From an uncultured bacterium (lineage in GTDB: Bacteria; Fidelibacterota; Marinisomatia; Marinisomatales; UBA1611), in contig CAXCBH010000001.1 of the NCBI GenBank assembly GCA_963980675.1, positions 1 through 40,123 of the forward strand: DNA of 40,123 nucleotides, written 5' to 3'. The notes beneath the pieces are model-generated. The model was not told the origin of the DNA. It did no database searches and worked only from the letters and a program-made list of their open reading frames with translations. The position numbers and the translations under genes are program-made. This document shows, in pieces, positions 3,870 through 39,400 of this stretch. Numbering within the stretch: the first letter of the stretch is position 1; each line of letters opens with the position of its first letter.

Positions 3870-5663
3870 ATGACACCTGATATTGCTATTGTAATTGGCT
3901 TACTTGCCTTGGGGTTTATCCTATTTGTGACCGAGATCTTCTCAATCGATGTTACAGCCATGATTCTCCTCTCTATTTTGTTCTTGTTTGGATATTTGAC
4001 TCCGGAGCAAGCTATCTCCGGTTTTTCAAATCCTGCAGTGCTCACCATTGCTTTCCTGTTTATTTTGAGTCATGCTCTCCAGAAAACAGGTATTCTTGAG
4101 TATCTTGTTATTCGGATCAATAAGATTGCAGACCGCTCCAGACTCCTGGGAAGAGCTGTTTATTTATTCACCATTGGTTTGGCTTCAGCGGTTGTGAACA
4201 ATACAGCTGTAGTTGCCATTTTTATGCCGGTAACAATTCGGTTGGCTCATAAATATAAACTGAGCCCATCCAAAATGTTGATACCATTGAGCTATGCTGC
4301 TATACTAGGTGGTACGCTCACTTTAGTGGGCACATCCACAAATCTACTGGTGAGTTCAATTTACGTTTCTGAACCAAATGTTGAACCCATGGGAATGTTT
4401 GAATTTGCTCGATATGGTGTAATTCTAATGTCCATAGGATTGCTCTATATTCTTTTTATTGCGCCCAAATTACTACCATCTCGAACTGTCACATCCAGTT
4501 TAACAAAGAGTTATCACCTGGGTGGATATTTGACTGAAATGAAAATCACGGAGGAGTCACCATTGGTGGGGACAAGTTGTTTTGACCGTGGCATCAATAA
4601 ACATTACGATGTGATGGTTTTAGACATTCTTCGTGATGAGAAAATGATCACATCCAATATTCGCCAGACAATACTGAAAGCAGGTGATATTCTGTTTGTC
4701 CGGGGAACGCTGAACAATTTTCTCAGCATGAAGGAAGTGGAAAAAATTACTTTATTAACTGACGAAAAATTGACGCAACAGGAGTTAGAAAAACAAGATA
4801 ATGTATTGGTGGAATGTTTGTTGACAGAAAAATCGGATTTGGTTGGCCATAGTTTGATGACGTCAAATTTTCGCCGGCGATTCGGCACATTCATTCTAGC
4901 AATCCGTCGAGAAGGTGCTATTTTTCGGAAAAAGGTTGCACATGTCGTGCTCCAAGCATTTGATACGTTTTTAGTATATGGTCCATCCAATAAGATAAAT
5001 GAATTATCCAAAGGCGGAGATTTTATCGTATTGGGAGAAGTGAAAGCAAAATTGCGAAAAAAACGATTCTGGTGGATGTCCATTGTGGTTGTTTTGGGAG
5101 GGATTGGATTGGCCGCTGCGGGCATCATGCCAATCATGAGCGGAGCCATGATCGGTGTTGTCTTATTACTGGCTATTAAGGTTATTACACCCCAGGAAGG
5201 ATACCAATCTATCCATTGGCAAGTGATTGTTCTTATTGCTGCATTGATTCCGGTAGGTATTGTTATCGAATCATCTGGTGCAGCAGAATGGTTAGGCGGT
5301 TTTATTTCTACTGCCGCACGTATGGCTCCTATTGAATGGCAAGCGCATGCACTTTTAGCATTGATCTATTTGATTACCATGATCTTGACAGAAGTTTCGT
5401 CCAATGCTGCAACAGCAATTATTATGACTCCCATAGCTATAGCTGTAACACAGCAAATGGAATTTGAACCTAGAGCATTTATTTTTGCCGTGGCATTTGC
5501 AGCATCTGCTTCATTTATTACACCGGTTGGATACCAAACCAATTTGATGGTCTATGGTCCGGGTGGATACAAATTCAGTGATTATATCCGAGTTGGATTT
5601 CCATTGGCATTGGTATTTTGGATCTCCGCTGTTTACTTTTTACCGATTCTTTGGCCCATTTAA
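3870..5663 (+). CDS. SLC13/DASS (CitMHS-like) anion permease with two central TrkA-C (RCK C-terminal) domains
   Basis: 597-aa polytopic ORF. Hydrophobic N- and C-terminal halves flank a soluble insert containing two TrkA-C-like repeats (DVMVLDILRDEKM...GDILFVRG and FILAIRREGAIFRK...FDTFLVYG). Confidence 0.85.
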   Translation: MTPDIAIVIGLLALGFILFVTEIFSIDVTAMILLSILFLFGYLTPEQAISGFSNPAVLTIAFLFILSHALQKTGILEYLVIRINKIADRSRLLGRAVYLFTIGLASAVVNNTAVVAIFMPVTIRLAHKYKLSPSKMLIPLSYAAILGGTLTLVGTSTNLLVSSIYVSEPNVEPMGMFEFARYGVILMSIGLLYILFIAPKLLPSRTVTSSLTKSYHLGGYLTEMKITEESPLVGTSCFDRGINKHYDVMVLDILRDEKMITSNIRQTILKAGDILFVRGTLNNFLSMKEVEKITLLTDEKLTQQELEKQDNVLVECLLTEKSDLVGHSLMTSNFRRRFGTFILAIRREGAIFRKKVAHVVLQAFDTFLVYGPSNKINELSKGGDFIVLGEVKAKLRKKRFWWMSIVVVLGGIGLAAAGIMPIMSGAMIGVVLLLAIKVITPQEGYQSIHWQVIVLIAALIPVGIVIESSGAAEWLGGFISTAARMAPIEWQAHALLALIYLITMILTEVSSNAATAIIMTPIAIAVTQQMEFEPRAFIFAVAFAASASFITPVGYQTNLMVYGPGGYKFSDYIRVGFPLALVFWISAVYFLPILWPI

Positions 5664-5665
5664 AA

Positions 5666-6052
5666 ATGAAATTATTTTTTATCATCGCTACAATAGTATT
5701 TGCGCTAAACTTTCTATGGAGTTGTGTAAAAAGTAATCCTGAAGCCATTCCAACCCTAAGTAGTCATCAAGGTGAAAAGTTGTTATCTAATCATAATTAT
5801 ATTTTCATTGATGTGCGAACACAACAAGAACACGATACGGGCCATATCCCCAATTCGACCCATATTCCCGTCAAGTCGCTGGAGTCAAGAATCGATGAAA
5901 TTGAAAAATTCAAAGAAAAGAAAATTGTTGTGTATTGCCGTAGCGGAAACCGATCTTCAAAAGGAACAAAAATTTTAAATAAATATGGGTTTGAAGCTAT
6001 GAATTTGGTTGGCGGTATGCTTCAATGGAAAGGACCGGTAGAAAAGAAATGA
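5666..6052 (+). CDS. Rhodanese-domain sulfurtransferase, probable lipoprotein
   Basis: I prefer the internal ATG at 5666 (MKLFFIIATIVFALNFLWSC, lipobox-like) over the track start at 5618, which would overlap the transporter gene. The active-site loop is VVYCRSGNRSSKG. Confidence 0.85.
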   Translation: MKLFFIIATIVFALNFLWSCVKSNPEAIPTLSSHQGEKLLSNHNYIFIDVRTQQEHDTGHIPNSTHIPVKSLESRIDEIEKFKEKKIVVYCRSGNRSSKGTKILNKYGFEAMNLVGGMLQWKGPVEKK

Positions 6053-31494: not shown

Positions 31495-34400
31495 ATGTCG
31501 ATAATTATTCGATCCCTTAAACTTAACTTATTACTTTTTTTCTTTTTTTATAATTTATTATTTCCCGGCACGACGGGGAAAATATCTGGCATTGTTCGTA
31601 ATATTGAAACTGAAGACCCATTAATCGGTGTTAATGTTGCTCTCGTTAGTACTCCTTTCGGTGCTGTTACTGATGAGACTGGTAGGTTTACACTCCTGAA
31701 TATTCCACCTGGTAATTATCAAATCCAAGCCAGTATGATGGGGTACTCAAAATATTTGATCAATGATTTAAGTGTGGGAATTGATCAAACAACTCAAATC
31801 AATATTCCAATGTCTCAAGAGTCTATTAAAATGAAAGAAGTCATTGTTCAAGCGAGTAAACCCATTATTCAATTGGATATTTCTAATAGCCAGTTTAATG
31901 TTAGTTCAGATGAAATAATATCATTACCAATAGATGAAATATCTGATATTCTTGACTTACAAGCAGGTGTGAATGGTTTAAGTATTAGAGGCGGGGGCAC
32001 AAGAGAATCTTTATTTCGTGTTGATGGATTTTCTTATAACGATGAAAGATCTAATATTCCATACACATCTATTCCAATCGGAATTATTAAAGAAATTCAA
32101 GTTCAAACAGGTGGCTTTAATGCAGAATATGGGAATATTCGTTCTGGAGTCATAAATGTTGTTTTGGCTGAAGGTGATAAAAATAAGGTTCATGGTGGAA
32201 TTACTTTCAGACATAGTCCCCCTACCCAGAAACATTTTGGCAATTCATTGTATTCAAGTGATTCATATTTTTTCCGTCCATTTCTAGATAATAATGTTTC
32301 TTGGGTTGGTACTGAAAATGGGAATTGGGATGCATACACAAGACGACAATATCCTTCTTTTGAAGGGTGGAATGCTGTTGCAGATGCAACATTACAGGAC
32401 GATGACCCTTCTAATGATCTTACACCTGCGAGTGCACAACAAATTTTCAAATGGCAACACAGGCGTAATGGTATTATCCAACATCCTGATGAAAATATGG
32501 ATTTATTTGTTTCAGGTCCAGTCCCCTTTGTATCGGAACTGGCAGGGAATCTTCGCTTTCTATTTAGTTATCGCAAAGAAAATGAAGCATTTATTTTTCC
32601 ATTATCCTATAAAGATTTTAAAGATAATTCTTGGTTGCTAAAGCTCACATCTGATTTCACAAAAAAAACTAAGATCAATTTTTCTCTTCAAAAGGGGCAG
32701 ATTCAATCTGTTTCCCCATATTCTTGGAAAACAACTCCAACGGGAACTTATTTACGCACATCTTATGAAGTAGCAAATCTCCTGAATGGTTCTTCTGGTA
32801 ATAGCATGTTATTTATGCCGGGTTATTACTCTCCTACCTTAATAAATAGATCAATTATTGGGATCAATTTGACTCACATGTTTTCTGAAAAAAAGTACCT
32901 AGAATTTTCCATCCAATATCAGTCTAATGATTATAATACTTTTCAAATGGAATTAAGGGATACAACAAAAACATATAAAATTATTCCCGGTTCGAATGAA
33001 TTAAAATTAGATGAGGCTCCATTTGGATATTGGGGATATGCTGAGACAGGTATTGATGGTATGGGGATTGGTGGTTGGATGAATCTTGGAAGAGATGAAT
33101 CAGTTAATTCAACCACAATTATTGATGTTGATTACATTAGCCAAATTGGAAATAATCACCATATTAAAAGTGGTGTAGGTGCTATACTCAATTCATTTAA
33201 AATAAGGTCTTTCACAGAAAGTCCCAGCATGTCTACTTGGAATCGATCAATGATTTATGACACTTCGCCATATAGATTATTTGCATATATTCAAGATAAA
33301 ATTGAGTATAAAGGATTCATTTCAAATATTGGAATCCGCAGTGATATCTCCAGCGGGAATTCGGATATTTATGATTTAGGCGAATATGATGATTATTTCA
33401 AACAGGGGAATGGCCACGATATTGAAGAAAATGTACCGTCCGCAATATCAAAACCAATTCATGCAATTAGTCCGAGACTAGGGATTTCTCATCCTATCAC
33501 AGATAAATCAAAATTATATTTTAATTACGGACATTTTTATTCTGAACCTTCTTCATCTTATCGTTTCAGATTACAAAGGGAAAGTAATGGGTTAGTGACT
33601 CATATTGGTGACCCTGGAATGGAATTTGAAAAAACCATTGCTTATGAAACAGGGTATTCATCAGATTTATTAGGACGCTTGTTATTGAATGTGGCTTTGT
33701 ATTATAAGGATATTACCAATCAACCGGGATGGGTTTATTATCAAAATATGAATGGGACGGTTCAAGTTAATCGAATTGAGAGTAATAATTATGAAGATAT
33801 TCGAGGTCTTGAGATTACCTTAAATAAAAAATTGGGTAATTGGATAACGGGTATGGTGAATTATACCTACCAAGTTGAATCTTCAGGATATTTTGGATTA
33901 TTAAAACAATTCCAAGATCCAAATGTGCAGCGAGATTATGAGAGTTTAAATCAATATCAGTCAAAACCACGGCCCAGACCTTATTTAAAAGCTGTTGCTC
34001 ATATTAGATCACCAAATAATTTTGGTCCTAAAATTTTTGGTCAATCCGTTTTTGGCAATTGGGCATCCAGTTTCATATATAAATATAATTCCGGTGGATT
34101 TGAAACATATAATCCACAAAACCTGCCTGGCGTGTCAAATAATATTCAGTGGAAAGATAATTATACTACGGATGCACGTTTTTCAAAAAAAATACAATTA
34201 AAAGAAACAACACTTGAATTTTTATTAGATGTAAAAAATTTATTTAATAATAAGTTTATTAGCTATGCGGGGTTTGCAGATTATTATGATTATATCGATT
34301 ATTTAGAATCATTGAGATTCTCATGGGAAGAAGGAAAGGAGAGGGGAGATGATAGAATTGGCGAATACAGAGCTTGGGATATTGATTATCAGCCATATGA

Positions 34401-34539
34401 ACCTGAAGATTGGCAAAATCCAACAGCAGAAGAGCAAGAGATACTAGACTCAAAAGCTTATATTGATATGCCAAATATCCGATCGGTAAGTTTTCTCAAT
34501 CCACGTGATATTTACTTTGGAATATCAGTGTATTTTTAA
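31495..34539 (+). CDS. TonB-dependent outer-membrane receptor with a CarboxypepD_reg-like domain (module 2, paralog of 23169..26321)
   Basis: 1014 aa with the same architecture as module 1 and clear alignable blocks, for example GKISGIVRN..DPLIGVNV, GGFNAEYGNIRSGVINVV and RHSPPTQKHFG...YPSFEGWN. C-terminal ISVYF. Confidence 0.9.
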   Translation: MSIIIRSLKLNLLLFFFFYNLLFPGTTGKISGIVRNIETEDPLIGVNVALVSTPFGAVTDETGRFTLLNIPPGNYQIQASMMGYSKYLINDLSVGIDQTTQINIPMSQESIKMKEVIVQASKPIIQLDISNSQFNVSSDEIISLPIDEISDILDLQAGVNGLSIRGGGTRESLFRVDGFSYNDERSNIPYTSIPIGIIKEIQVQTGGFNAEYGNIRSGVINVVLAEGDKNKVHGGITFRHSPPTQKHFGNSLYSSDSYFFRPFLDNNVSWVGTENGNWDAYTRRQYPSFEGWNAVADATLQDDDPSNDLTPASAQQIFKWQHRRNGIIQHPDENMDLFVSGPVPFVSELAGNLRFLFSYRKENEAFIFPLSYKDFKDNSWLLKLTSDFTKKTKINFSLQKGQIQSVSPYSWKTTPTGTYLRTSYEVANLLNGSSGNSMLFMPGYYSPTLINRSIIGINLTHMFSEKKYLEFSIQYQSNDYNTFQMELRDTTKTYKIIPGSNELKLDEAPFGYWGYAETGIDGMGIGGWMNLGRDESVNSTTIIDVDYISQIGNNHHIKSGVGAILNSFKIRSFTESPSMSTWNRSMIYDTSPYRLFAYIQDKIEYKGFISNIGIRSDISSGNSDIYDLGEYDDYFKQGNGHDIEENVPSAISKPIHAISPRLGISHPITDKSKLYFNYGHFYSEPSSSYRFRLQRESNGLVTHIGDPGMEFEKTIAYETGYSSDLLGRLLLNVALYYKDITNQPGWVYYQNMNGTVQVNRIESNNYEDIRGLEITLNKKLGNWITGMVNYTYQVESSGYFGLLKQFQDPNVQRDYESLNQYQSKPRPRPYLKAVAHIRSPNNFGPKIFGQSVFGNWASSFIYKYNSGGFETYNPQNLPGVSNNIQWKDNYTTDARFSKKIQLKETTLEFLLDVKNLFNNKFISYAGFADYYDYIDYLESLRFSWEEGKERGDDRIGEYRAWDIDYQPYEPEDWQNPTAEEQEILDSKAYIDMPNIRSVSFLNPRDIYFGISVYF

Positions 34540-36684
34540 ATGTCAAATTCTATTTTATTACGAATATTTTTTATAATTTTACCAATTCTGGTTTCTAGTC
34601 GAGTTGATGAAACATTAAAACGGTATATTAAGGTTGGTTCTCTACAAAGTCACTTTTCTGCCTATGGAAGTGAGAGAGCTTGGAATAATACCTACTATGA
34701 GGGCCTTATCTGGCCTGCGGATTATTTATACCAAGATAATTCTGTTATTAAAAGGACTTGGATTGCCACTAAAAATTTTACAGATGATCAAGGGTATTTA
34801 TGGGGTCACTATGGTGTGTACCTGCTTCTCAGTGATAACCAGGTTGGGACAAGTATTTTTCCAATGGAATTATATCAGATTGCAAAATTTATGCCACCCA
34901 CTGTTTATGTTGATGGTACCGATATTAATAGTTTCTATAATGCTCAAATAGATTCAGTTAATAGTGAAATTCCTTCTGATAGAATTGTTGTAAACAGGGT
35001 GAATACATCTATGGGGTTAACTATGGAACGGCGTATTTTTGCTTTTAGTCAGCAATATCATGATAATTATTTTATTAAAGTATTTACATTTACCAATACA
35101 GGAAATACGGATTGGGATGATGAAATTGAACTCACCAGTGATTTAGATGGTGTCGTGGCTGGCTGGGGTCCTCGCTACAGTTTACCAAGAGAAACCGGTA
35201 ACCGATTGGATGGTCAACAATCTTGGGGGAAAAACTCTTGGGTTACCATTCGTGGGGAAGATTATGCGGATAATTATTTAATGCCTATTACTGAAGATGA
35301 CCCTAGCCCTCAATGGCTAAGGTCTGTATTTCAATGGTATGGTCGCTCTGCAACTGTTTCACAGGTAAATACAATTGGGGGACCTTATTATCAAGGAAAT
35401 GGCCGATTAATGTCTCCGCACCATGCTGGCATGGGAGTAATTCATGTTGATATGGATTGGGGTGATTCCACAAATGATATTCATCAACCTTTATTTATGG
35501 GGTGGCACGCAGGTGATACCTATCCATCCATTGGTAGTTTGTCCCCATCTGCAGAACCATCTATGGCAAATCTTTACGATATGTTATCCGGAATACCTTT
35601 TCTGGGCTTAGGTGGTGCAGAACGTATTGATGAAATAGCTATGGGAGACCCATCCTCAGACACGTACTTGAACCACAATATAAAACCATTTGATATGCAC
35701 AATGATGCAGGAGGAATGAATGCAATGGTGACTTATGGTCCATTTGATATTCCGCATGGAGAAAGTGTGACGATTGTTGAAGTGGAAGGCATTAATGGAA
35801 TTAACCGCACAATGTGTGAAGAAATAGGACTTGAGTGGGATAAAGGTAGTCCTCCATTTATTTTACCTGATGGGTCTGAAACTGCCAATAAGGATATATT
35901 TAAAAATTCCTGGGTTTTTACGGGTAAAGATTCAATTTTGAAGACATTTGGACGAGCCTATAGGAATTATAATTCTGGATTTCAAATTCCATCTCCACCT
36001 TTACCACCACCATTATTTGATGTACAATCTGGCGGTGATAGAATATTTTTAAAGTGGGAACCAAGTGGAACAGAATTTGAGTCATCTTTTTCGGGATATG
36101 AAATTTGGAGAGCACCGGGAAAAGCTGACACCATCTATACTCAAGTCTATTCTGGTGCAAAAGGGACGTATTCATTTGATGATCTCACAGCGAAAAGAGG
36201 AATTTCTTATTATTATTATATTCAATCTGTGTCAAATGGTTCAAATAACCAATCCGGCGAACTCAACCCAACAGGACCTTTAAAGAGCAGCCGTTTCTAT
36301 ACAAAAACATCAAAGCCAGCTTATCTTAGAAGGAAATCCGGGGATGCCCTTAGAGATATAAGGATTGTTCCTAATCCGTATCATATCGCAGCAAAGGATT
36401 ATCAATATACTGGTGAAAAAGATAAAATAATGTTTCTGAATATTCCTGGACAATGTGACATAAGAGTTTTTACCGAAAGAGGTGATCTTATCCATCATAT
36501 TTCCCATAATGACGGTAGCGGGGACGAGGCTTGGAACTTGGTAACATCGGGACGACAAGTTGTAGCTCCCGGAATATATTTAGCTCATATATTGGTATCA
36601 TCAAACATCCTATCAATAGACCAGGAAAACGTTATAATTCGCAAGGGGGATAGTAGAGTTTTAAAGTTTGCTGTTATTCGGTAA
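34540..36684 (+). CDS. Uncharacterised secreted TBDR-partner protein (module 2, paralog of 26311..28461)
   Basis: 714 aa. Its ATG directly abuts the TBDR stop (TAAATG). Shares blocks with the 716-aa protein (NSWVFTGKDSILKTF; PPLFDVQSGGDRIFLKWE; IRIVPNPYHIAAKD...IMFLNIPGQCDIRVFTERGDLIHHISHNDGSGDEAWN). The CTD-like tail is about 36349..36681. Confidence 0.85.
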   Translation: MSNSILLRIFFIILPILVSSRVDETLKRYIKVGSLQSHFSAYGSERAWNNTYYEGLIWPADYLYQDNSVIKRTWIATKNFTDDQGYLWGHYGVYLLLSDNQVGTSIFPMELYQIAKFMPPTVYVDGTDINSFYNAQIDSVNSEIPSDRIVVNRVNTSMGLTMERRIFAFSQQYHDNYFIKVFTFTNTGNTDWDDEIELTSDLDGVVAGWGPRYSLPRETGNRLDGQQSWGKNSWVTIRGEDYADNYLMPITEDDPSPQWLRSVFQWYGRSATVSQVNTIGGPYYQGNGRLMSPHHAGMGVIHVDMDWGDSTNDIHQPLFMGWHAGDTYPSIGSLSPSAEPSMANLYDMLSGIPFLGLGGAERIDEIAMGDPSSDTYLNHNIKPFDMHNDAGGMNAMVTYGPFDIPHGESVTIVEVEGINGINRTMCEEIGLEWDKGSPPFILPDGSETANKDIFKNSWVFTGKDSILKTFGRAYRNYNSGFQIPSPPLPPPLFDVQSGGDRIFLKWEPSGTEFESSFSGYEIWRAPGKADTIYTQVYSGAKGTYSFDDLTAKRGISYYYYIQSVSNGSNNQSGELNPTGPLKSSRFYTKTSKPAYLRRKSGDALRDIRIVPNPYHIAAKDYQYTGEKDKIMFLNIPGQCDIRVFTERGDLIHHISHNDGSGDEAWNLVTSGRQVVAPGIYLAHILVSSNILSIDQENVIIRKGDSRVLKFAVIR

Positions 36685-36710
36685 AATTGTCTATTACACT
36701 ATATTATCAT

Positions 36711-36732: not shown

Positions 36733-36820
36733 ACTTGAAAAATATGGAAAAGTTTGGTATTCTCACCGTTCATAATTGTACTATAATATGTAGCACAATT
36801 TTCTTATCATAAACGAAACA

Positions 36821-36832: not shown

Positions 36833-39400
36833 ATGAATAAAAAGTTATTTACTACATTATGTGTATTTATCATGTCTCTTGGTTTTGTCAAAGCGGAATG
36901 GACATACAGTTCCACTCTTTTGGATTTGGGTGACACCTTAGGTGGTGTTGTTCATGGATCTGACGGTGCTTGGCAGAACTCTCCCCACGGTGTAGCAGTT
37001 GCTCCTGACGGTAACGTCTGGGTCAATATCTACGGTGGAAATGGAGAAATGGAAGTATTGGCGAATGGAGATACGGTTCACTGGAAAGGAATCTATGTAT
37101 TAGATCCTGCATCAGGCGAGCATGTTAGCTTTTCACCTATTGAAACTTTAACTTTTCCAGACGGGACAATAGACTCGTTAACCGCAGAGAGCGCAACTTC
37201 AGGCGGTGGACGTGGTATAGAAATTGATGGTGATGGCAACATCCTTAGTTCACATTACAAATCACTTTATAAGATTAATTACATGACTGGTGAAGGTATG
37301 GCAATGTATGTAAGTCCAAATGGATCTATTACAGATGCTGTAACCGATGATAATGGCAACACATATGTTGGTAATGTTGGTGCTGATAATCCAGTAGTTG
37401 TACTGGATTCAGATCTGAGCTATGTCGGTAATGCAATTGATACGGTTCGTAATATCAATCGTGCTTTAGAAGTCTCAGCTAATGGTGAAGATCTATATAT
37501 TGGTTCCACTTGGAATGGTATGGGGATTTCCCACTTTAATAGTAGTGTACCTGGTGTCATACAGCATGCACCTGTGGATACTTTTGGAGTATTCTATGAT
37601 GTGCCAGCTTGTTTTGATGAGATCAGCAGTGCAATTGCTGACAGTGCTTATATGCCATGGTGCGAAGATGAAGACGCTCCTGACACTGTTATGGCATTAA
37701 CACATATGTGGGCAAGTTCATTGGACTTTGATCCTGATGGTAATCTCTTGGTTGGTTGTGTGACAGCTGCCTGGGGAGGCCCTACTGGTGGTGCAAATTG
37801 GTTATTTGATCCAGCAGATACAGAAGAACCATTTGATATAGCCGGTAACTGGCACGACTGGGAGGGCACTGGTGAAGGAGTCACTGATGGTCCCCGTGGA
37901 GCTGCCTGGGATGCAGACGGTGATCTCTACCTTGCTGATTTTTACAGCAATGGTGTATTTCACCATTCATATGAAGAAGATGATGGCTTCGATATTGATG
38001 AACCATATACATACAGTTCCACTCTTTTGGATTTGGGTGACACCTTAGGTGGTGTTGTTCATGGATCTGACGGTGCTTGGCAGAACTCTCCCCACGGTGT
38101 AGCAGTTGCTCCTGACGGTAACGTCTGGGTCAATATCTACGGTGGAAATGGAGAAATGGAAGTATTGGCGAATGGAGATACGGTTCACTGGAAAGGAATC
38201 TATGTATTAGATCCTGCATCAGGCGAGCATGTTAGCTTTTCACCTATTGAAACTTTAACTTTTCCAGACGGGACAATAGACTCGTTAACCGCAGAGAGCG
38301 CAACTTCAGGCGGTGGACGTGGTATAGAAATTGATGGTGATGGCAACATCCTTAGTTCACATTACAAATCACTTTATAAGATTAATTACATGACTGGTGA
38401 AGGTATGGCAATGTATGTAAGTCCAAATGGATCTATTACAGATGCTGTAACCGATGATAATGGCAACACATATGTTGGTAATGTTGGTGCTGATAATCCA
38501 GTAGTTGTACTGGATTCAGATCTGAGCTATGTCGGTAATGCAATTGATACGGTTCGTAATATCAATCGTGCTTTAGAAGTCTCAGCTAATGGTGAAGATC
38601 TATATATTGGTTCCACTTGGAATGGTATGGGGATTTCCCACTTTAATAGTAGTGTACCTGGTGTCATACAGCATGCACCTGTGGATACTTTTGGAGTATT
38701 CTATGATGTGCCAGCTTGTTTTGATGAGATCAGCAGTGCAATTGCTGACAGTGCTTATATGCCATGGTGCGAAGATGAAGACGCTCCTGACACTGTTATG
38801 GCATTAACACATATGTGGGCAAGTTCATTGGACTTTGATCCTGATGGTAATCTCTTGGTTGGTTGTGTGACAGCTGCCTGGGGAGGCCCTACTGGTGGTG
38901 CAAATTGGTTATTTGATCCAGCAGATACAGAAGAACCATTTGATATAGCCGGTAACTGGCACGACTGGGAGGGCACTGGTGAAGGAGTCACTGATGGTCC
39001 CCGTGGAGCTGCCTGGGATGCAGACGGTGATCTCTACCTTGCTGATTTTTACAGCAATGGTGTGTTTCTGTATACAATGGATTACTCATCCGTCTCGGAT
39101 GACCCAAAGAGTGTAGTTCCGAGTGGGTATGTACTTAACCAGAACTATCCAAACCCGTTCAATCCAAACACAAAGATTGAGTTTACGATACCTGCTAGCG
39201 AGCACGTAAGCGTAAATATTTACAATCTTGAAGGTAGGTTGGTTAAAACACTGATCGATCAGGAAATGAGATCAGGCCAGCACGTAGTTCGCTGGGATGG
39301 TAATAACCAGATTGGAACGAAAGTTGCAACCGGTATGTACATTTACCAGTTGAAGACAAAGTCAATGGTATTGCACCGCAGAATGACATTTGTCAAATAA
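36833..39400 (+). CDS. Secreted protein with two identical beta-propeller-like (NHL/SGL-like) domains and a T9SS C-terminal sorting domain
   Basis: 855 aa with a signal peptide. Two identical ~352-aa units carry blade-like motifs (PDGNVWV, DGDGNIL, DDNGNTYVG, DPDGNLLVG, DADGDLYLAD). The tail is a T9SS CTD. Confidence 0.85.
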   Translation: MNKKLFTTLCVFIMSLGFVKAEWTYSSTLLDLGDTLGGVVHGSDGAWQNSPHGVAVAPDGNVWVNIYGGNGEMEVLANGDTVHWKGIYVLDPASGEHVSFSPIETLTFPDGTIDSLTAESATSGGGRGIEIDGDGNILSSHYKSLYKINYMTGEGMAMYVSPNGSITDAVTDDNGNTYVGNVGADNPVVVLDSDLSYVGNAIDTVRNINRALEVSANGEDLYIGSTWNGMGISHFNSSVPGVIQHAPVDTFGVFYDVPACFDEISSAIADSAYMPWCEDEDAPDTVMALTHMWASSLDFDPDGNLLVGCVTAAWGGPTGGANWLFDPADTEEPFDIAGNWHDWEGTGEGVTDGPRGAAWDADGDLYLADFYSNGVFHHSYEEDDGFDIDEPYTYSSTLLDLGDTLGGVVHGSDGAWQNSPHGVAVAPDGNVWVNIYGGNGEMEVLANGDTVHWKGIYVLDPASGEHVSFSPIETLTFPDGTIDSLTAESATSGGGRGIEIDGDGNILSSHYKSLYKINYMTGEGMAMYVSPNGSITDAVTDDNGNTYVGNVGADNPVVVLDSDLSYVGNAIDTVRNINRALEVSANGEDLYIGSTWNGMGISHFNSSVPGVIQHAPVDTFGVFYDVPACFDEISSAIADSAYMPWCEDEDAPDTVMALTHMWASSLDFDPDGNLLVGCVTAAWGGPTGGANWLFDPADTEEPFDIAGNWHDWEGTGEGVTDGPRGAAWDADGDLYLADFYSNGVFLYTMDYSSVSDDPKSVVPSGYVLNQNYPNPFNPNTKIEFTIPASEHVSVNIYNLEGRLVKTLIDQEMRSGQHVVRWDGNNQIGTKVATGMYIYQLKTKSMVLHRRMTFVK
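36902..37956. repeat. Direct repeat copy 1 (1055 bp), identical by eye to 38009..39063
   Basis: Base-by-base reading shows no mismatch at an offset of 1107 bp (369 codons). Off-frame track ORFs are also duplicated exactly (37482/38589 and 37648/38755). Confidence 0.95.
38009..39063. repeat. Direct repeat copy 2 (1055 bp)
   Basis: Same evidence as copy 1. The copies are separated by a unique 52-nt in-frame linker at 37957..38008. Confidence 0.95.
39122..39397 (+). other. T9SS type-A C-terminal sorting domain (Por_Secre_tail-like)
   Basis: LNQNYPNPFNPNTKIEFTIPASEHVSVNIYNLEGRLVKTLIDQEMRSGQHVVRWDGNNQIGTKVATGMYIYQLK is a textbook CTD pattern. Confidence 0.8.

What the first reader, a model, noticed from the sequence alone, without database searches (positions are those of the whole stretch)
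36902..39063. Nucleotide-perfect 1055-bp in-frame domain duplication with a unique linker inside a T9SS cargo gene
Positions 36902..37956 and 38009..39063 are identical at every base I compared. The offset is 1107 bp, or 369 codons, so the protein carries two identical propeller-like domains. The 52-nt linker (37957..38008, roughly encoding HHSYEEDDGFDIDEPY) matches neither the sequence preceding copy 1 nor the sequence following copy 2. A simple one-step tandem duplication of a contiguous segment would leave a junction copied from one of those flanks. The options are therefore: (a) an older two-domain gene whose domains were recently homogenised by gene conversion, (b) a very recent duplication plus junction remodelling, or (c) an assembly artefact. 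Zero synonymous differences over 1 kb is striking for a real gene, and such repeats are recombination-prone and could vary in copy number.
Basis: seen in the sequence. Interest (0 to 1): 0.65.

Follow-up and report, generated by a model that had tools for sequence, protein, structure and literature searches.

The report
Twin propeller domains kept identical
A secreted surface protein of an uncultured marine bacterium (SAR406/Marinimicrobia) carries two copies of a whole beta-propeller domain that are identical base for base, because recombination inside the gene keeps overwriting one copy with the other; this is a real and very clean example of a known process, not an assembly error.

Summary
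Positions 36902-37956 and 38009-39063 are identical at all 1055 bases, offset 1107 nt (369 codons), inside one 855-aa ORF: signal peptide, propeller, 16-aa acidic linker, propeller, T9SS sorting domain.

It is not an artefact. In eight metagenome runs and one metatranscriptome the 112-nt unitig joining repeat end, linker and repeat start is present at about flank depth, and the repeat unitig sits at about twice flank depth.

All 17 two-domain orthologs (59-92% aa identity) carry their own internal perfect repeat, 555-1086 nt in the five sequenced at DNA level, two from 1.2-1.3 Mb contigs whose names suggest long-read assembly. Their linkers are homologous and diverge in step with the gene. Against the closest ortholog, all 66 repeat differences occur identically in both copies.

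In nine orthologs only the first ~690-780 nt is homogenised. The last ~130 residues are older, diverged D1 and D2 types.

One-domain orthologs occupy the same slot in sister lineages, so copy number does vary.

This is recurrent intragenic gene conversion or unequal exchange: a known process, shown unusually clearly and persistently. Function is unknown; the gene sits in a peptidoglycan/amino-sugar scavenging locus.

The parts
36833..39400 (+). Gene for an 855-aa T9SS cargo protein with two tandem beta-propeller domains
   Evidence: Single ORF. Pfam NHL, FlgD_ig and Por_Secre_tail; NCBIfam TIGR04183. Orthologs at the same syntenic position.
36833..36895 (+). Signal peptide (MNKKLFTTLCVFIMSLGFVKA), read by eye
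   Evidence: Translation. Helix at residues 4-14 with low pLDDT in the full-length model. No signal-peptide predictor was available.
36902..37956 (+). Repeat copy 1 (propeller domain 1, aa 24-376)
   Evidence: 1055/1055 identical to copy 2. AF2 beta-propeller.
37654..37705 (+). Hypervariable surface-loop segment in copy 1 (aa ~274-291, ...YMPWCEDEDAPDTVMALTH...)
   Evidence: Two alleles in natural populations, the window type and a 49-nt alternative one codon shorter. Low pLDDT in the model. Most divergent stretch against the closest ortholog.
37957..38008 (+). Unique 52-nt linker (HHSYEEDDGFDIDEPY), acidic and predicted disordered
   Evidence: Homologous linkers in all 17 two-domain orthologs. 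pLDDT below 50 at residues 382-389. 112-nt unitig 37927-38038 present in all nine runs laid.
38009..39063 (+). Repeat copy 2 (propeller domain 2, aa 393-745)
38761..38812 (+). The same hypervariable loop segment in copy 2
39146..39397 (+). T9SS type A C-terminal sorting domain
   Evidence: PF18962 at aa 772-844 (28.1 bits, cut-off 27). TIGR04183 at aa 772-846 (34.4 bits, cut-off 23). Beta-sandwich in the model.

Best explanation
The gene encodes a secreted, probably cell-surface-attached protein of a Marinimicrobia (SAR406) bacterium. Its layout is Sec signal peptide, beta-propeller, 16-residue acidic flexible linker, a second beta-propeller, spacer, T9SS type A sorting domain.

The two-propeller layout is old: it predates lineages whose synonymous sites are now saturated. 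The two propeller-coding segments are repeatedly homogenised by homologous recombination between the 1.1-kb direct repeats, either intragenic gene conversion or unequal sister-chromosome exchange followed by contraction. Every substitution that arises is therefore either lost or copied into the other domain. The linker and the flanks lie outside the exchanged tract and diverge normally.

In all lineages the tract covers the first ~690-780 nt of the domain. In about half of them, this window included, it runs through the whole domain. In the others it stops sharply in front of a hypervariable, two-cysteine surface loop, leaving older D1-type and D2-type C-terminal parts.

Recombination between the same repeats also deletes one unit. 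This gives one-domain alleles (signal peptide + N-part + D2-type C-part + tail), which are found at the same locus in sister lineages.

What is shown: the repeat, its reality in nature, the concerted-evolution pattern, the mosaic structure and the copy-number difference between lineages.

What is inferred: the molecular pathway (RecA-type conversion or unequal exchange). Also inferred is the biological role, which I take to be bivalent capture or processing of peptidoglycan- or chitin-derived polymers at the cell surface. That guess rests on the neighbouring genes: TonB-dependent receptors, GH18, NamZ, GHL10, GH3/NagZ and SpoIID.
For: (1) The repeat is exact: 1055/1055 nt, in frame.

(2) It exists in nature. 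In eight metagenome runs and one metatranscriptome (seven DNA runs plus the RNA run laid across the whole region):
- the left-flank unitig ends 26-30 nt into the repeat;
- a 108-112-nt unitig joins repeat end, linker and repeat start, at 0.65-1.4x flank depth in six of seven DNA runs (up to 2.0x in X2);
- the repeat unitig sits at about 1.7-3.7x flank depth, near 2x in most runs;
- the right-flank unitig starts 30 nt before the repeat end.
This topology needs the arrangement R-linker-R.

(3) Three different repeat alleles each form one unbranched unitig at ~2x depth: window type in X1, a 5-SNP variant in X10, and a 1052-nt alternative-loop allele in X9. Each strain's allele therefore sits in both copies.

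(4) All 17 two-domain orthologs (59-92% aa identity) have their own internal exact repeat of 164-362 aa. At DNA level the repeats are 1046, 1010, 1086, 683 and 555 nt. The last is on two 1.2-1.3 Mb '_pilon' contigs from two samples.

(5) Window vs L001: of 67 nucleotide differences in the repeat, 66 occur identically in both copies. For more distant pairs 161-369 differences are shared by both copies.

(6) The linker is homologous in all orthologs. Its identity to the window (98, 73, 71, 65, 69%) tracks that of the tail (99, 71, 66, 59, 74%).

(7) dS between orthologs is saturated (above 1.2-2), while dS between the two copies is 0.

(8) Mosaicism:
- N-part identity D1 vs D2 is 95.5-100% in all 18 proteins, against a between-protein median of 78.5%.
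- C-part identity D1 vs D2 is only 65-86% in nine proteins, and the best matches lie in other proteins.
- P0008_D2 and P0009_D2 cluster apart from their D1s, as do the D2s of P0015 and P0016.
- There is a sharp identity break at gene position ~759-772 in L003 and L004.

(9) One-domain orthologs sit in the same gene order on 80-316 kb contigs and are nested among two-domain lineages in flank-gene trees.

(10) The linker unitig is present in a metatranscriptome.
Against: - No read or single molecule spanning both copies of this exact strain could be examined. All runs offered are k=31 contigs, and no PacBio or Nanopore run was listed.
- Logan contigs can drop rare variants, so a low-frequency difference between the copies cannot be excluded.
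- That the '_pilon' contigs are long-read assemblies is inferred from their names and sizes.
- Short-read assemblers could erase a few real differences between near-identical copies in some orthologs. The '_pilon' ortholog does show 2-3 mismatches in its ~690-nt tract.
- Conversion and unequal exchange cannot be told apart from these data.
- The function of the propeller is unknown. Fold matches are generic (TM 0.5-0.6).
- The C-part tree is a complex mosaic, not a clean D1/D2 split.
Confidence: 0.86

Rival explanations
1. Independent, very recent tandem duplications of the propeller segment arose in each lineage, with no gene conversion. Each lineage started from a one-domain gene and duplicated it shortly before sampling.
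For: One-domain orthologs exist at the same locus and are interleaved with two-domain ones in flank-gene trees. Several orthologs have copies identical over the whole domain.
Against: - The duplication boundaries are the same in all 18 proteins.
- The 14-16-residue acidic linker is homologous throughout, with the pattern H-[YFH]-x-[YFW]-acidic-(E/D/F)-P-[YF]. It diverges in step with the rest of the gene, so it is as old as the lineages.
- Nine orthologs have old, diverged C-terminal parts next to identical N-terminal parts, and the D1-type and D2-type parts are shared between lineages. A fresh duplication cannot produce that.
Confidence: 0.05
2. Assembly artefact. Either a one-domain gene was wrongly traversed twice through a graph loop, or two slightly different copies were given one consensus, which would make the perfect identity spurious.
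For: - A 1-kb exact repeat cannot be spanned by short reads.
- The exact 855-aa protein is not on record in other assemblies.
- All DNA runs laid across these positions differ from the window at 36707 and 36718, so the source sample was probably not examined.
- In four runs (X2-X5) the repeat has two branches in the loop segment.
Against: - The repeat-end/linker/repeat-start unitig exists in every run laid, at about single-copy depth, while the repeat is at about double depth. A one-domain gene has no such junction.
- Unbranched repeat unitigs of 1052-1055 nt occur in X1, X9 and X10.
- Logan contigs do keep minor SNP branches: in X4 at 36955, depth 4.5 of 28.5. A 50:50 difference between the copies should therefore have shown.
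- The branch ratios in X2-X5 vary (59:41 to 75:25), and X9 carries the alternative allele alone. This fits a mixture of strains, not a difference between copies.
- Two-domain orthologs were assembled independently by JGI, Tara/ENA, SPAdes-type and '_pilon' pipelines.
Confidence: 0.03
3. Identity is kept by purifying selection on the protein alone. Two domains must stay identical for function, without any recombination between them.
For: The N-terminal two thirds of the domain are well conserved between orthologs (median 78.5%).
Against: - Selection on the protein does not hold synonymous sites. The copies have zero synonymous differences, while orthologs are saturated at synonymous sites.
- Lineage-specific substitutions, synonymous ones included, are present in both copies.
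Confidence: 0.01

Closest known systems
Periscope Proteins and other surface proteins with highly identical tandem domain repeats (Rib/alpha C, SasG/Aap, Esp, CdrA; PMC8201768)
   Same: - A bacterial surface protein with tandem copies of a folded domain.
- The coding DNA of the copies is (near-)identical.
- Intragenic recombination both homogenises the repeats and changes their number.
- Related lineages differ in copy number.
   Different: - There are only one or two copies, not long arrays.
- The unit is a whole ~353-aa globular beta-propeller plus a flexible acidic linker (1107 nt), not a small Ig-like stalk domain.
- There is no separate distal head domain to project.
- The full-length model gives no fixed rod (pTM 0.48).
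- The protein is T9SS cargo of a free-living marine oligotroph, not a wall-anchored adhesin of a host-associated bacterium.
Concerted evolution by gene conversion between bacterial paralogs (tufA/tufB; Helicobacter pylori babA/babB; my own knowledge, also named in earlier scan notes)
   Same: - Copies within a genome are more alike than orthologs between genomes, synonymous sites included.
- The tracts are mosaic, with sharp ends next to older divergence.
   Different: Here the two partners are domains of one polypeptide 1.1 kb apart, so every event must stay in frame. The same recombination also makes one-domain alleles. Homogenisation is seen in every lineage sampled across synonymous-site saturation.
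T9SS type A CTD cargo proteins with NHL/YncE/SGL-like beta-propellers (TIGR04183, PF18962, PF01436)
   Same: A signal peptide, propeller body and C-terminal sorting domain that pass the curated cut-offs. The family is found in Marinimicrobia, KSB1, WOR-3 and Calditrichota.
   Different: The relatives in KSB1 and WOR-3 have two clearly diverged propellers (no internal exact run longer than 8 aa). Most other relatives have one propeller. Only the Marinimicrobia clade has twin identical ones.

Membership tests
T9SS type A CTD cargo | C-terminal sorting domain that passes the curated model cut-offs | tested here: met
   TIGR04183 34.4 bits (cut-off 23) at aa 772-846. PF18962 28.1 bits (cut-off 27) at aa 772-844.
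T9SS type A CTD cargo | N-terminal Sec signal peptide | tested here: inconclusive
   MNKKLFTTLCVFIMSLGFVKA|EW reads as a classic signal peptide. No predictor was available, so this is by inspection only.
T9SS type A CTD cargo | T9SS machinery (PorK/L/M/N, SprA, PorU/V) encoded in the genome | not testable with these tools
The window holds only a weak PorV-like match (19.3 bits, cut-off 27).
Concerted evolution / gene conversion between repeats | Copies within a genome are more alike than orthologous copies between genomes, synonymous sites included | tested here: met
   0/1055 differences within the window, against 6-36% between orthologs. 66 of 67 differences to L001 are shared by both copies. 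dS between orthologs is saturated.
Concerted evolution / gene conversion between repeats | The duplication is older than the homogenised sequence (old junction, or older divergence outside the tract) | tested here: met
   The linker is homologous in 18 proteins and diverges with the gene. Nine orthologs have diverged C-parts with cross-lineage D1/D2 types and sharp tract ends.
Periscope Proteins | Tandem folded domains encoded by highly identical DNA | tested here: met
   Two 353-aa propellers with 100% DNA identity.
Periscope Proteins | Repeat number varies between related strains | tested here: inconclusive
   One-domain and two-domain orthologs occupy the same locus in sister lineages. Variation within one strain or population could not be measured, and no three-domain form was seen.
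Periscope Proteins | The repeats form an elongated rod that projects a distinct distal functional domain | tested here: not met
   There is no head domain besides the repeats. The full-length AF2 model has pTM 0.48 and a disordered linker, so no defined inter-domain arrangement.
NHL-repeat beta-propeller | Six-bladed NHL propeller recognised by sequence and fold | tested here: inconclusive
   Pfam NHL reaches 42.1 bits for the whole protein (cut-off 20), but no single stretch passes on its own. Foldseek top hits are a mix of PAL, NHL and WD40 at TM 0.5-0.6. The fold is a beta-propeller; the family is not settled.

The most novel reading that the evidence does not exclude
The twin-propeller layout may be a selected variation device and not just a by-product of recombination. 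A constant N-terminal two thirds would be kept identical so that the repeats can recombine. That recombination would (i) switch the exposed protein between one-domain and two-domain forms, and (ii) shuffle or fix alternative hypervariable two-cysteine loops in the C-terminal third. The payoff would be tuned ligand avidity or specificity, or escape from phage or grazer recognition, in an abundant ocean bacterium. The elevated dN/dS of the C-terminal part (0.91 against 0.11-0.13 in neighbouring genes) is compatible with this. So are the coexisting loop alleles in natural populations and the shared tract end just before the loop. None of these demonstrates it.
Probability: 0.12. Interest if true: 0.65.

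Novelty: new member of a known kind. Interest (0 to 1): 0.4.

Why it matters
- It settles an assembly question. A 1-kb perfect intragenic repeat in a metagenome-derived genome is real, and it recurs throughout a clade of SAR406 bacteria.
- It gives an unusually clean natural record of concerted evolution inside a single gene. Homogenisation has persisted past synonymous saturation, with a mapped tract boundary and with the matching deletion products present in sister lineages.
- It has practical consequences. One-domain and two-domain versions of this gene in databases cannot be trusted from short-read assemblies without checking the linker junction. Gene-level clustering will also split the family by length.
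- Biologically, it marks a fast-evolving surface protein in a conserved cell-wall or amino-sugar scavenging locus. The only cultured member of the phylum lives on exogenous muropeptides (PMC11652737).

Tried and rejected
I could not look for paralogs, T9SS machinery or the contig context in the window's own genome.
- The exact 855-aa protein is not in the gene-position index.
I therefore could not test in unitig graphs whether the one-domain orthologs (L009, L013) lack a linker junction. Their reality rests on unbroken 80-316 kb contigs, some with MEGAHIT-style k141/k119 names, and on presence in 52 collection blocks.
- No PacBio or Nanopore run holding the stretch was listed.
- The fold search gave only generic propeller matches and no functional lead.
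- The full-length AF2 model gave no inter-domain geometry.
- The exhaustive representative search showed a small family (34 clusters at E <= 1e-30) and no three-domain form, but added little else.
- A DGR-type mechanism for the hypervariable loop was considered and dropped. The allele differences are not adenine-specific and include an in-frame codon deletion. No reverse transcriptase turned up among the 17 window ORFs scanned.
- Unusually fast evolution of the repeat relative to its flanks was considered. The tail is 99.4% identical to L001 and the repeat only 93.7%. However, the whole 9-kb region averages 95% with mosaic peaks, and dS in the repeat (0.10-0.12) is not above that of the neighbouring genes (0.135-0.19).
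Full report
**Observation.** Window 36902-37956 and 38009-39063 are identical at all 1055 bases. The maximal exact match has exactly these ends, and the offset is 1107 nt, or 369 codons. After one mismatch four more bases agree, and beyond that the diagonal is at background on both sides. Both copies lie in one ORF, 36833-39400 on the plus strand, 855 aa. No other long exact repeat exists in the 40-kb window. The two TonB-receptor modules 8.3 kb apart share at best 82% over 65 nt.

**Anatomy.**
- The protein starts with a signal-peptide-like N-terminus (MNKKLFTTLCVFIMSLGFVKA).
- Domain 1 is aa 24-376, the linker HHSYEEDDGFDIDEPY is aa 377-392, and domain 2 is aa 393-745.
- A short spacer follows, then a T9SS type A sorting domain (TIGR04183 34.4 bits against a cut-off of 23; PF18962 28.1 against 27).
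- An AlphaFold2 model of one domain, built on 26 sequences, is confident (pLDDT 84.6, pTM 0.86) and all-beta.
- Foldseek returns beta-propellers of mixed families (PAL lyase 3fvz, NHL 6d69 and 8j72, WD40) at TM 0.5-0.6. The fold is a propeller but the function is not indicated.
- The full-length model keeps both propellers and the CTD. Its pTM is only 0.48, and pLDDT is below 50 in the linker (382-389) and the spacer (751-777). I read this as beads on a flexible string.

**Is it real?** All runs offered are Logan k=31 contigs, so no read spans the repeat. An exact two-copy repeat does, however, predict a specific graph, and that graph is seen in every run laid. Seven DNA runs were laid across the whole region (X1-X4, X7, X9, X10), X5 across the loop segment only, and one metatranscriptome (X15) across the whole region.
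- The left-flank contig ends at 36927-36931, 26-30 nt into the repeat.
- A contig of 108-112 nt covers 37927-38038, that is 30 nt of repeat end, the 52-nt linker and 26-30 nt of repeat start.
- The right-flank contig starts at 39034.
- Repeat contigs have roughly twice the flank depth: X1 11.7 vs 4.3-5.5; X3 27.7 vs 12.4-13.7; X4 22.3 vs 12.2-12.4; X10 20.2 vs 5.8-9.8.
- The linker contig sits near flank depth (X1 4.5, X3 15.5, X4 9.6, X10 7.6).

The repeat-end to repeat-start junction cannot come from a one-domain gene. The depth ratios fit two copies and not three.

In X1, X10 and X9 the repeat is one unbranched contig of 1055, 1055 (with 5 SNPs) and 1052 nt. A minor SNP branch is kept in X4 (36955, depth 4.5 of 28.5), so a 1:1 difference between the copies should have been visible.

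X2-X5 show two branches in one 52-nt segment, 38761-38812 (equivalent to 37654-37705). The ratios are 59:41, 54:46, 70:30 and 75:25. The alternative branch is in frame and one codon shorter...SAYIGWCDDEDADTVFTETMMW... instead of ...SAYMPWCEDEDAPDTVMALTHMW.... It is the only form in X9. I read this as a mixture of strains, each with its own allele in both copies.

The linker contig is also present in the metatranscriptome X15. That suggests the two-domain mRNA is made, although DNA carry-over cannot be excluded.

**Relatives.**
- The protein search found 17 two-domain clusters (829-871 aa, 59-92% identity).
- It also found many one-domain forms (480-499 aa), one of them named Candidatus Marinimicrobia by NCBI.
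- More distant two-propeller proteins come from KSB1 and WOR-3.
- Every one of the 17 two-domain orthologs has its own internal exact repeat of 164-362 aa. The KSB1 and WOR-3 proteins have none.
- At DNA level the exact runs are 1046 nt (L001/L002, from a JGI and a Tara assembly), 1010 nt (L008), 1086 nt (L006/L007), 683 nt (L003) and 555 nt (L004/L005).
- L004 and L005 are 1.29 and 1.22 Mb contigs named '..._pilon' from two samples. I take them to be polished long-read assemblies (an inference from name and size). Their copies differ at only 2-3 positions over ~690 nt and then diverge abruptly.
- Gene order is conserved around all of them: TIG protein, (TonB receptor, ~714-aa partner), propeller gene, GH18 with T9SS tail, NamZ, GHL10 with T9SS tail.

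**Concerted evolution.**
- Between the window and L001 there are 67 nucleotide differences in the repeat. Of these, 66 are present identically in both copies. For more distant pairs, 161-369 differences are shared by both copies.
- The linker is homologous in all 18 proteins (HYAYEEDDGFDPDFPY, HFAWQDDEGVDVDEPY, HYAYSEDDDDEIEEPF and so on).
- The linker's identity to the window (98, 73, 71, 65, 69%) tracks that of the tail (99, 71, 66, 59, 74%). The junction is therefore as old as the lineages, which excludes separate recent duplications.
- Synonymous divergence between the window and L003 or L008 is saturated (dS above 1.2-2), while it is zero between the two copies.
- The N-terminal 224 residues of D1 and D2 are 95.5-100% identical within each of the 18 proteins. 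The between-protein median is 78.5%.
- In nine proteins the last ~130 residues are only 65-86% identical between D1 and D2, and each finds its best match in another protein.
- In the tree of this part, P0008_D2 and P0009_D2 group apart from their D1s. P0015_D1 groups with P0016_D1, apart from their D2s. The tree is otherwise a mosaic.
- The tract ends sharply at gene position ~759 in L003 and ~772 in L004. This is just before a hypervariable two-cysteine loop, which is also the low-confidence segment of the model and the polymorphic segment in the metagenomes.

**Copy number.**
- One-domain orthologs P0025 (L009-L012) and P0028 (L013) sit in the same gene order on unbroken contigs of 80-316 kb. 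P0025 is listed in 52 blocks of the collection.
- The k141/k119 record names suggest MEGAHIT. From my own knowledge, MEGAHIT does not resolve such loops, so an unbroken contig argues against a collapsed two-domain gene.
- Trees of the flanking TIG and receptor genes give (L006, (L004, (L003, (L008, (L009 one-domain, (L013 one-domain, (window, L001))))))). The one-domain forms are thus nested among two-domain lineages.
- One-domain forms close to a given two-domain protein carry its D2-type C-terminal part: P0022 and P0024 with P0003_D2, P0034 with P0015_D2, P0035 with P0016_D2. That is the product expected from recombination between the identical N-parts of the two repeats.
- No three-domain form was found.

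**Selection.** Against L001, dS in the repeat (0.10-0.12) is not above that of the neighbours (0.135 and 0.19). dN/dS, however, is 0.33 in the N-part and 0.91 in the C-part, against 0.11-0.13 in the neighbouring receptor and partner genes. The propeller changes its amino acids faster than its neighbours do, especially around the loop.

**Context and likely role.**
- Upstream genes, first group: a GH3/beta-lactamase-fold fusion, two TonB-receptor plus ~715-aa partner modules, a PKD protein, a weak PorV-like barrel and a TIG protein.
- Upstream genes, second group: GH3 NagZ, SpoIID and a sodium:solute symporter.
- A GH18 gene follows downstream.
- Orthologous loci continue with NamZ and GHL10.
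- Earlier notes of this scan read the same operon as a surface capture-and-import machine.
- The only cultured member of the phylum depends on exogenous muropeptides (PMC11652737, abstract).
- My inference, not tested: the twin propeller is a surface module that binds or processes peptidoglycan- or chitin-derived polymers, and two identical modules give bivalent binding.

**Comparison with the known.** The DNA behaviour matches surface proteins with highly identical tandem domain repeats, the Periscope Proteins. In those, high DNA identity is proposed to enable intragenic recombination and gain or loss of repeats (PMC8201768). It also matches classic concerted evolution of paralogs. This protein is not a Periscope Protein in the structural sense: there is no stalk and no distal head. 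Earlier notes of this scan list several gene-conversion cases among neighbouring T9SS cargo genes. The present case differs in being intragenic, covering a whole propeller, and being maintained across a deep clade.

**Verdict.** This is a new and very clear member of a known kind of process. Interest is moderate.

Noticed in passing
window 36707 and 36718: All seven DNA runs laid across these positions read G and A where the window has T and T, in the intergenic region upstream of the propeller gene. These are either private variants of the window's strain or assembly errors. It also suggests that none of the runs examined is the window's source sample.
   Followed up: no
window 37654-37705 = 38761-38812: A 52-nt mosaic segment has two sharply different in-frame alleles in natural populations, differing by 7 substitutions and one codon. 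It encodes a loop between two cysteines. In each strain the allele appears to occupy both domain copies.
   Followed up: partly
L004 and L006 (loci of P0015 and P0017), positions 4600-6000: In the two most distant two-domain lineages the propeller gene follows the TIG gene directly. The second TonB-receptor plus ~714-aa partner module (window 31495-36684) is absent, so that module was gained in the window's clade or lost in theirs.
   Followed up: no
L001 8626-9956 and L002 8626-9682: In the closest relatives the downstream GH18 gene is called as two pieces (346+119 aa and 183+182 aa). In L003, L009 and L013 it is one 444-448-aa protein with a T9SS tail. This could be a frameshift, a pseudogene or an assembly error. 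The window ends inside this gene.
   Followed up: no
window 36760-36787 and 36783: A promoter-like site (TTCTCA-16-TATAAT) lies 46 nt upstream of the start codon. The metatranscriptome contig begins at 36783, so the gene may have its own promoter. The positions do not fit a single start site cleanly.
   Followed up: no
window 37932-37960 and 39039-39067: A terminator-like hairpin followed by a T-rich stretch lies inside the last 25 nt of each repeat copy, within coding sequence. This is probably coincidence. It does sit at the 3' edge of the homogenised tract.
   Followed up: no
P0036 (498 aa, NCBI source): This one-domain relative has a C-terminal part that groups with the D1-type parts of P0015 and P0016, not with the D2 type expected from a simple repeat-to-repeat deletion.
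   Followed up: no
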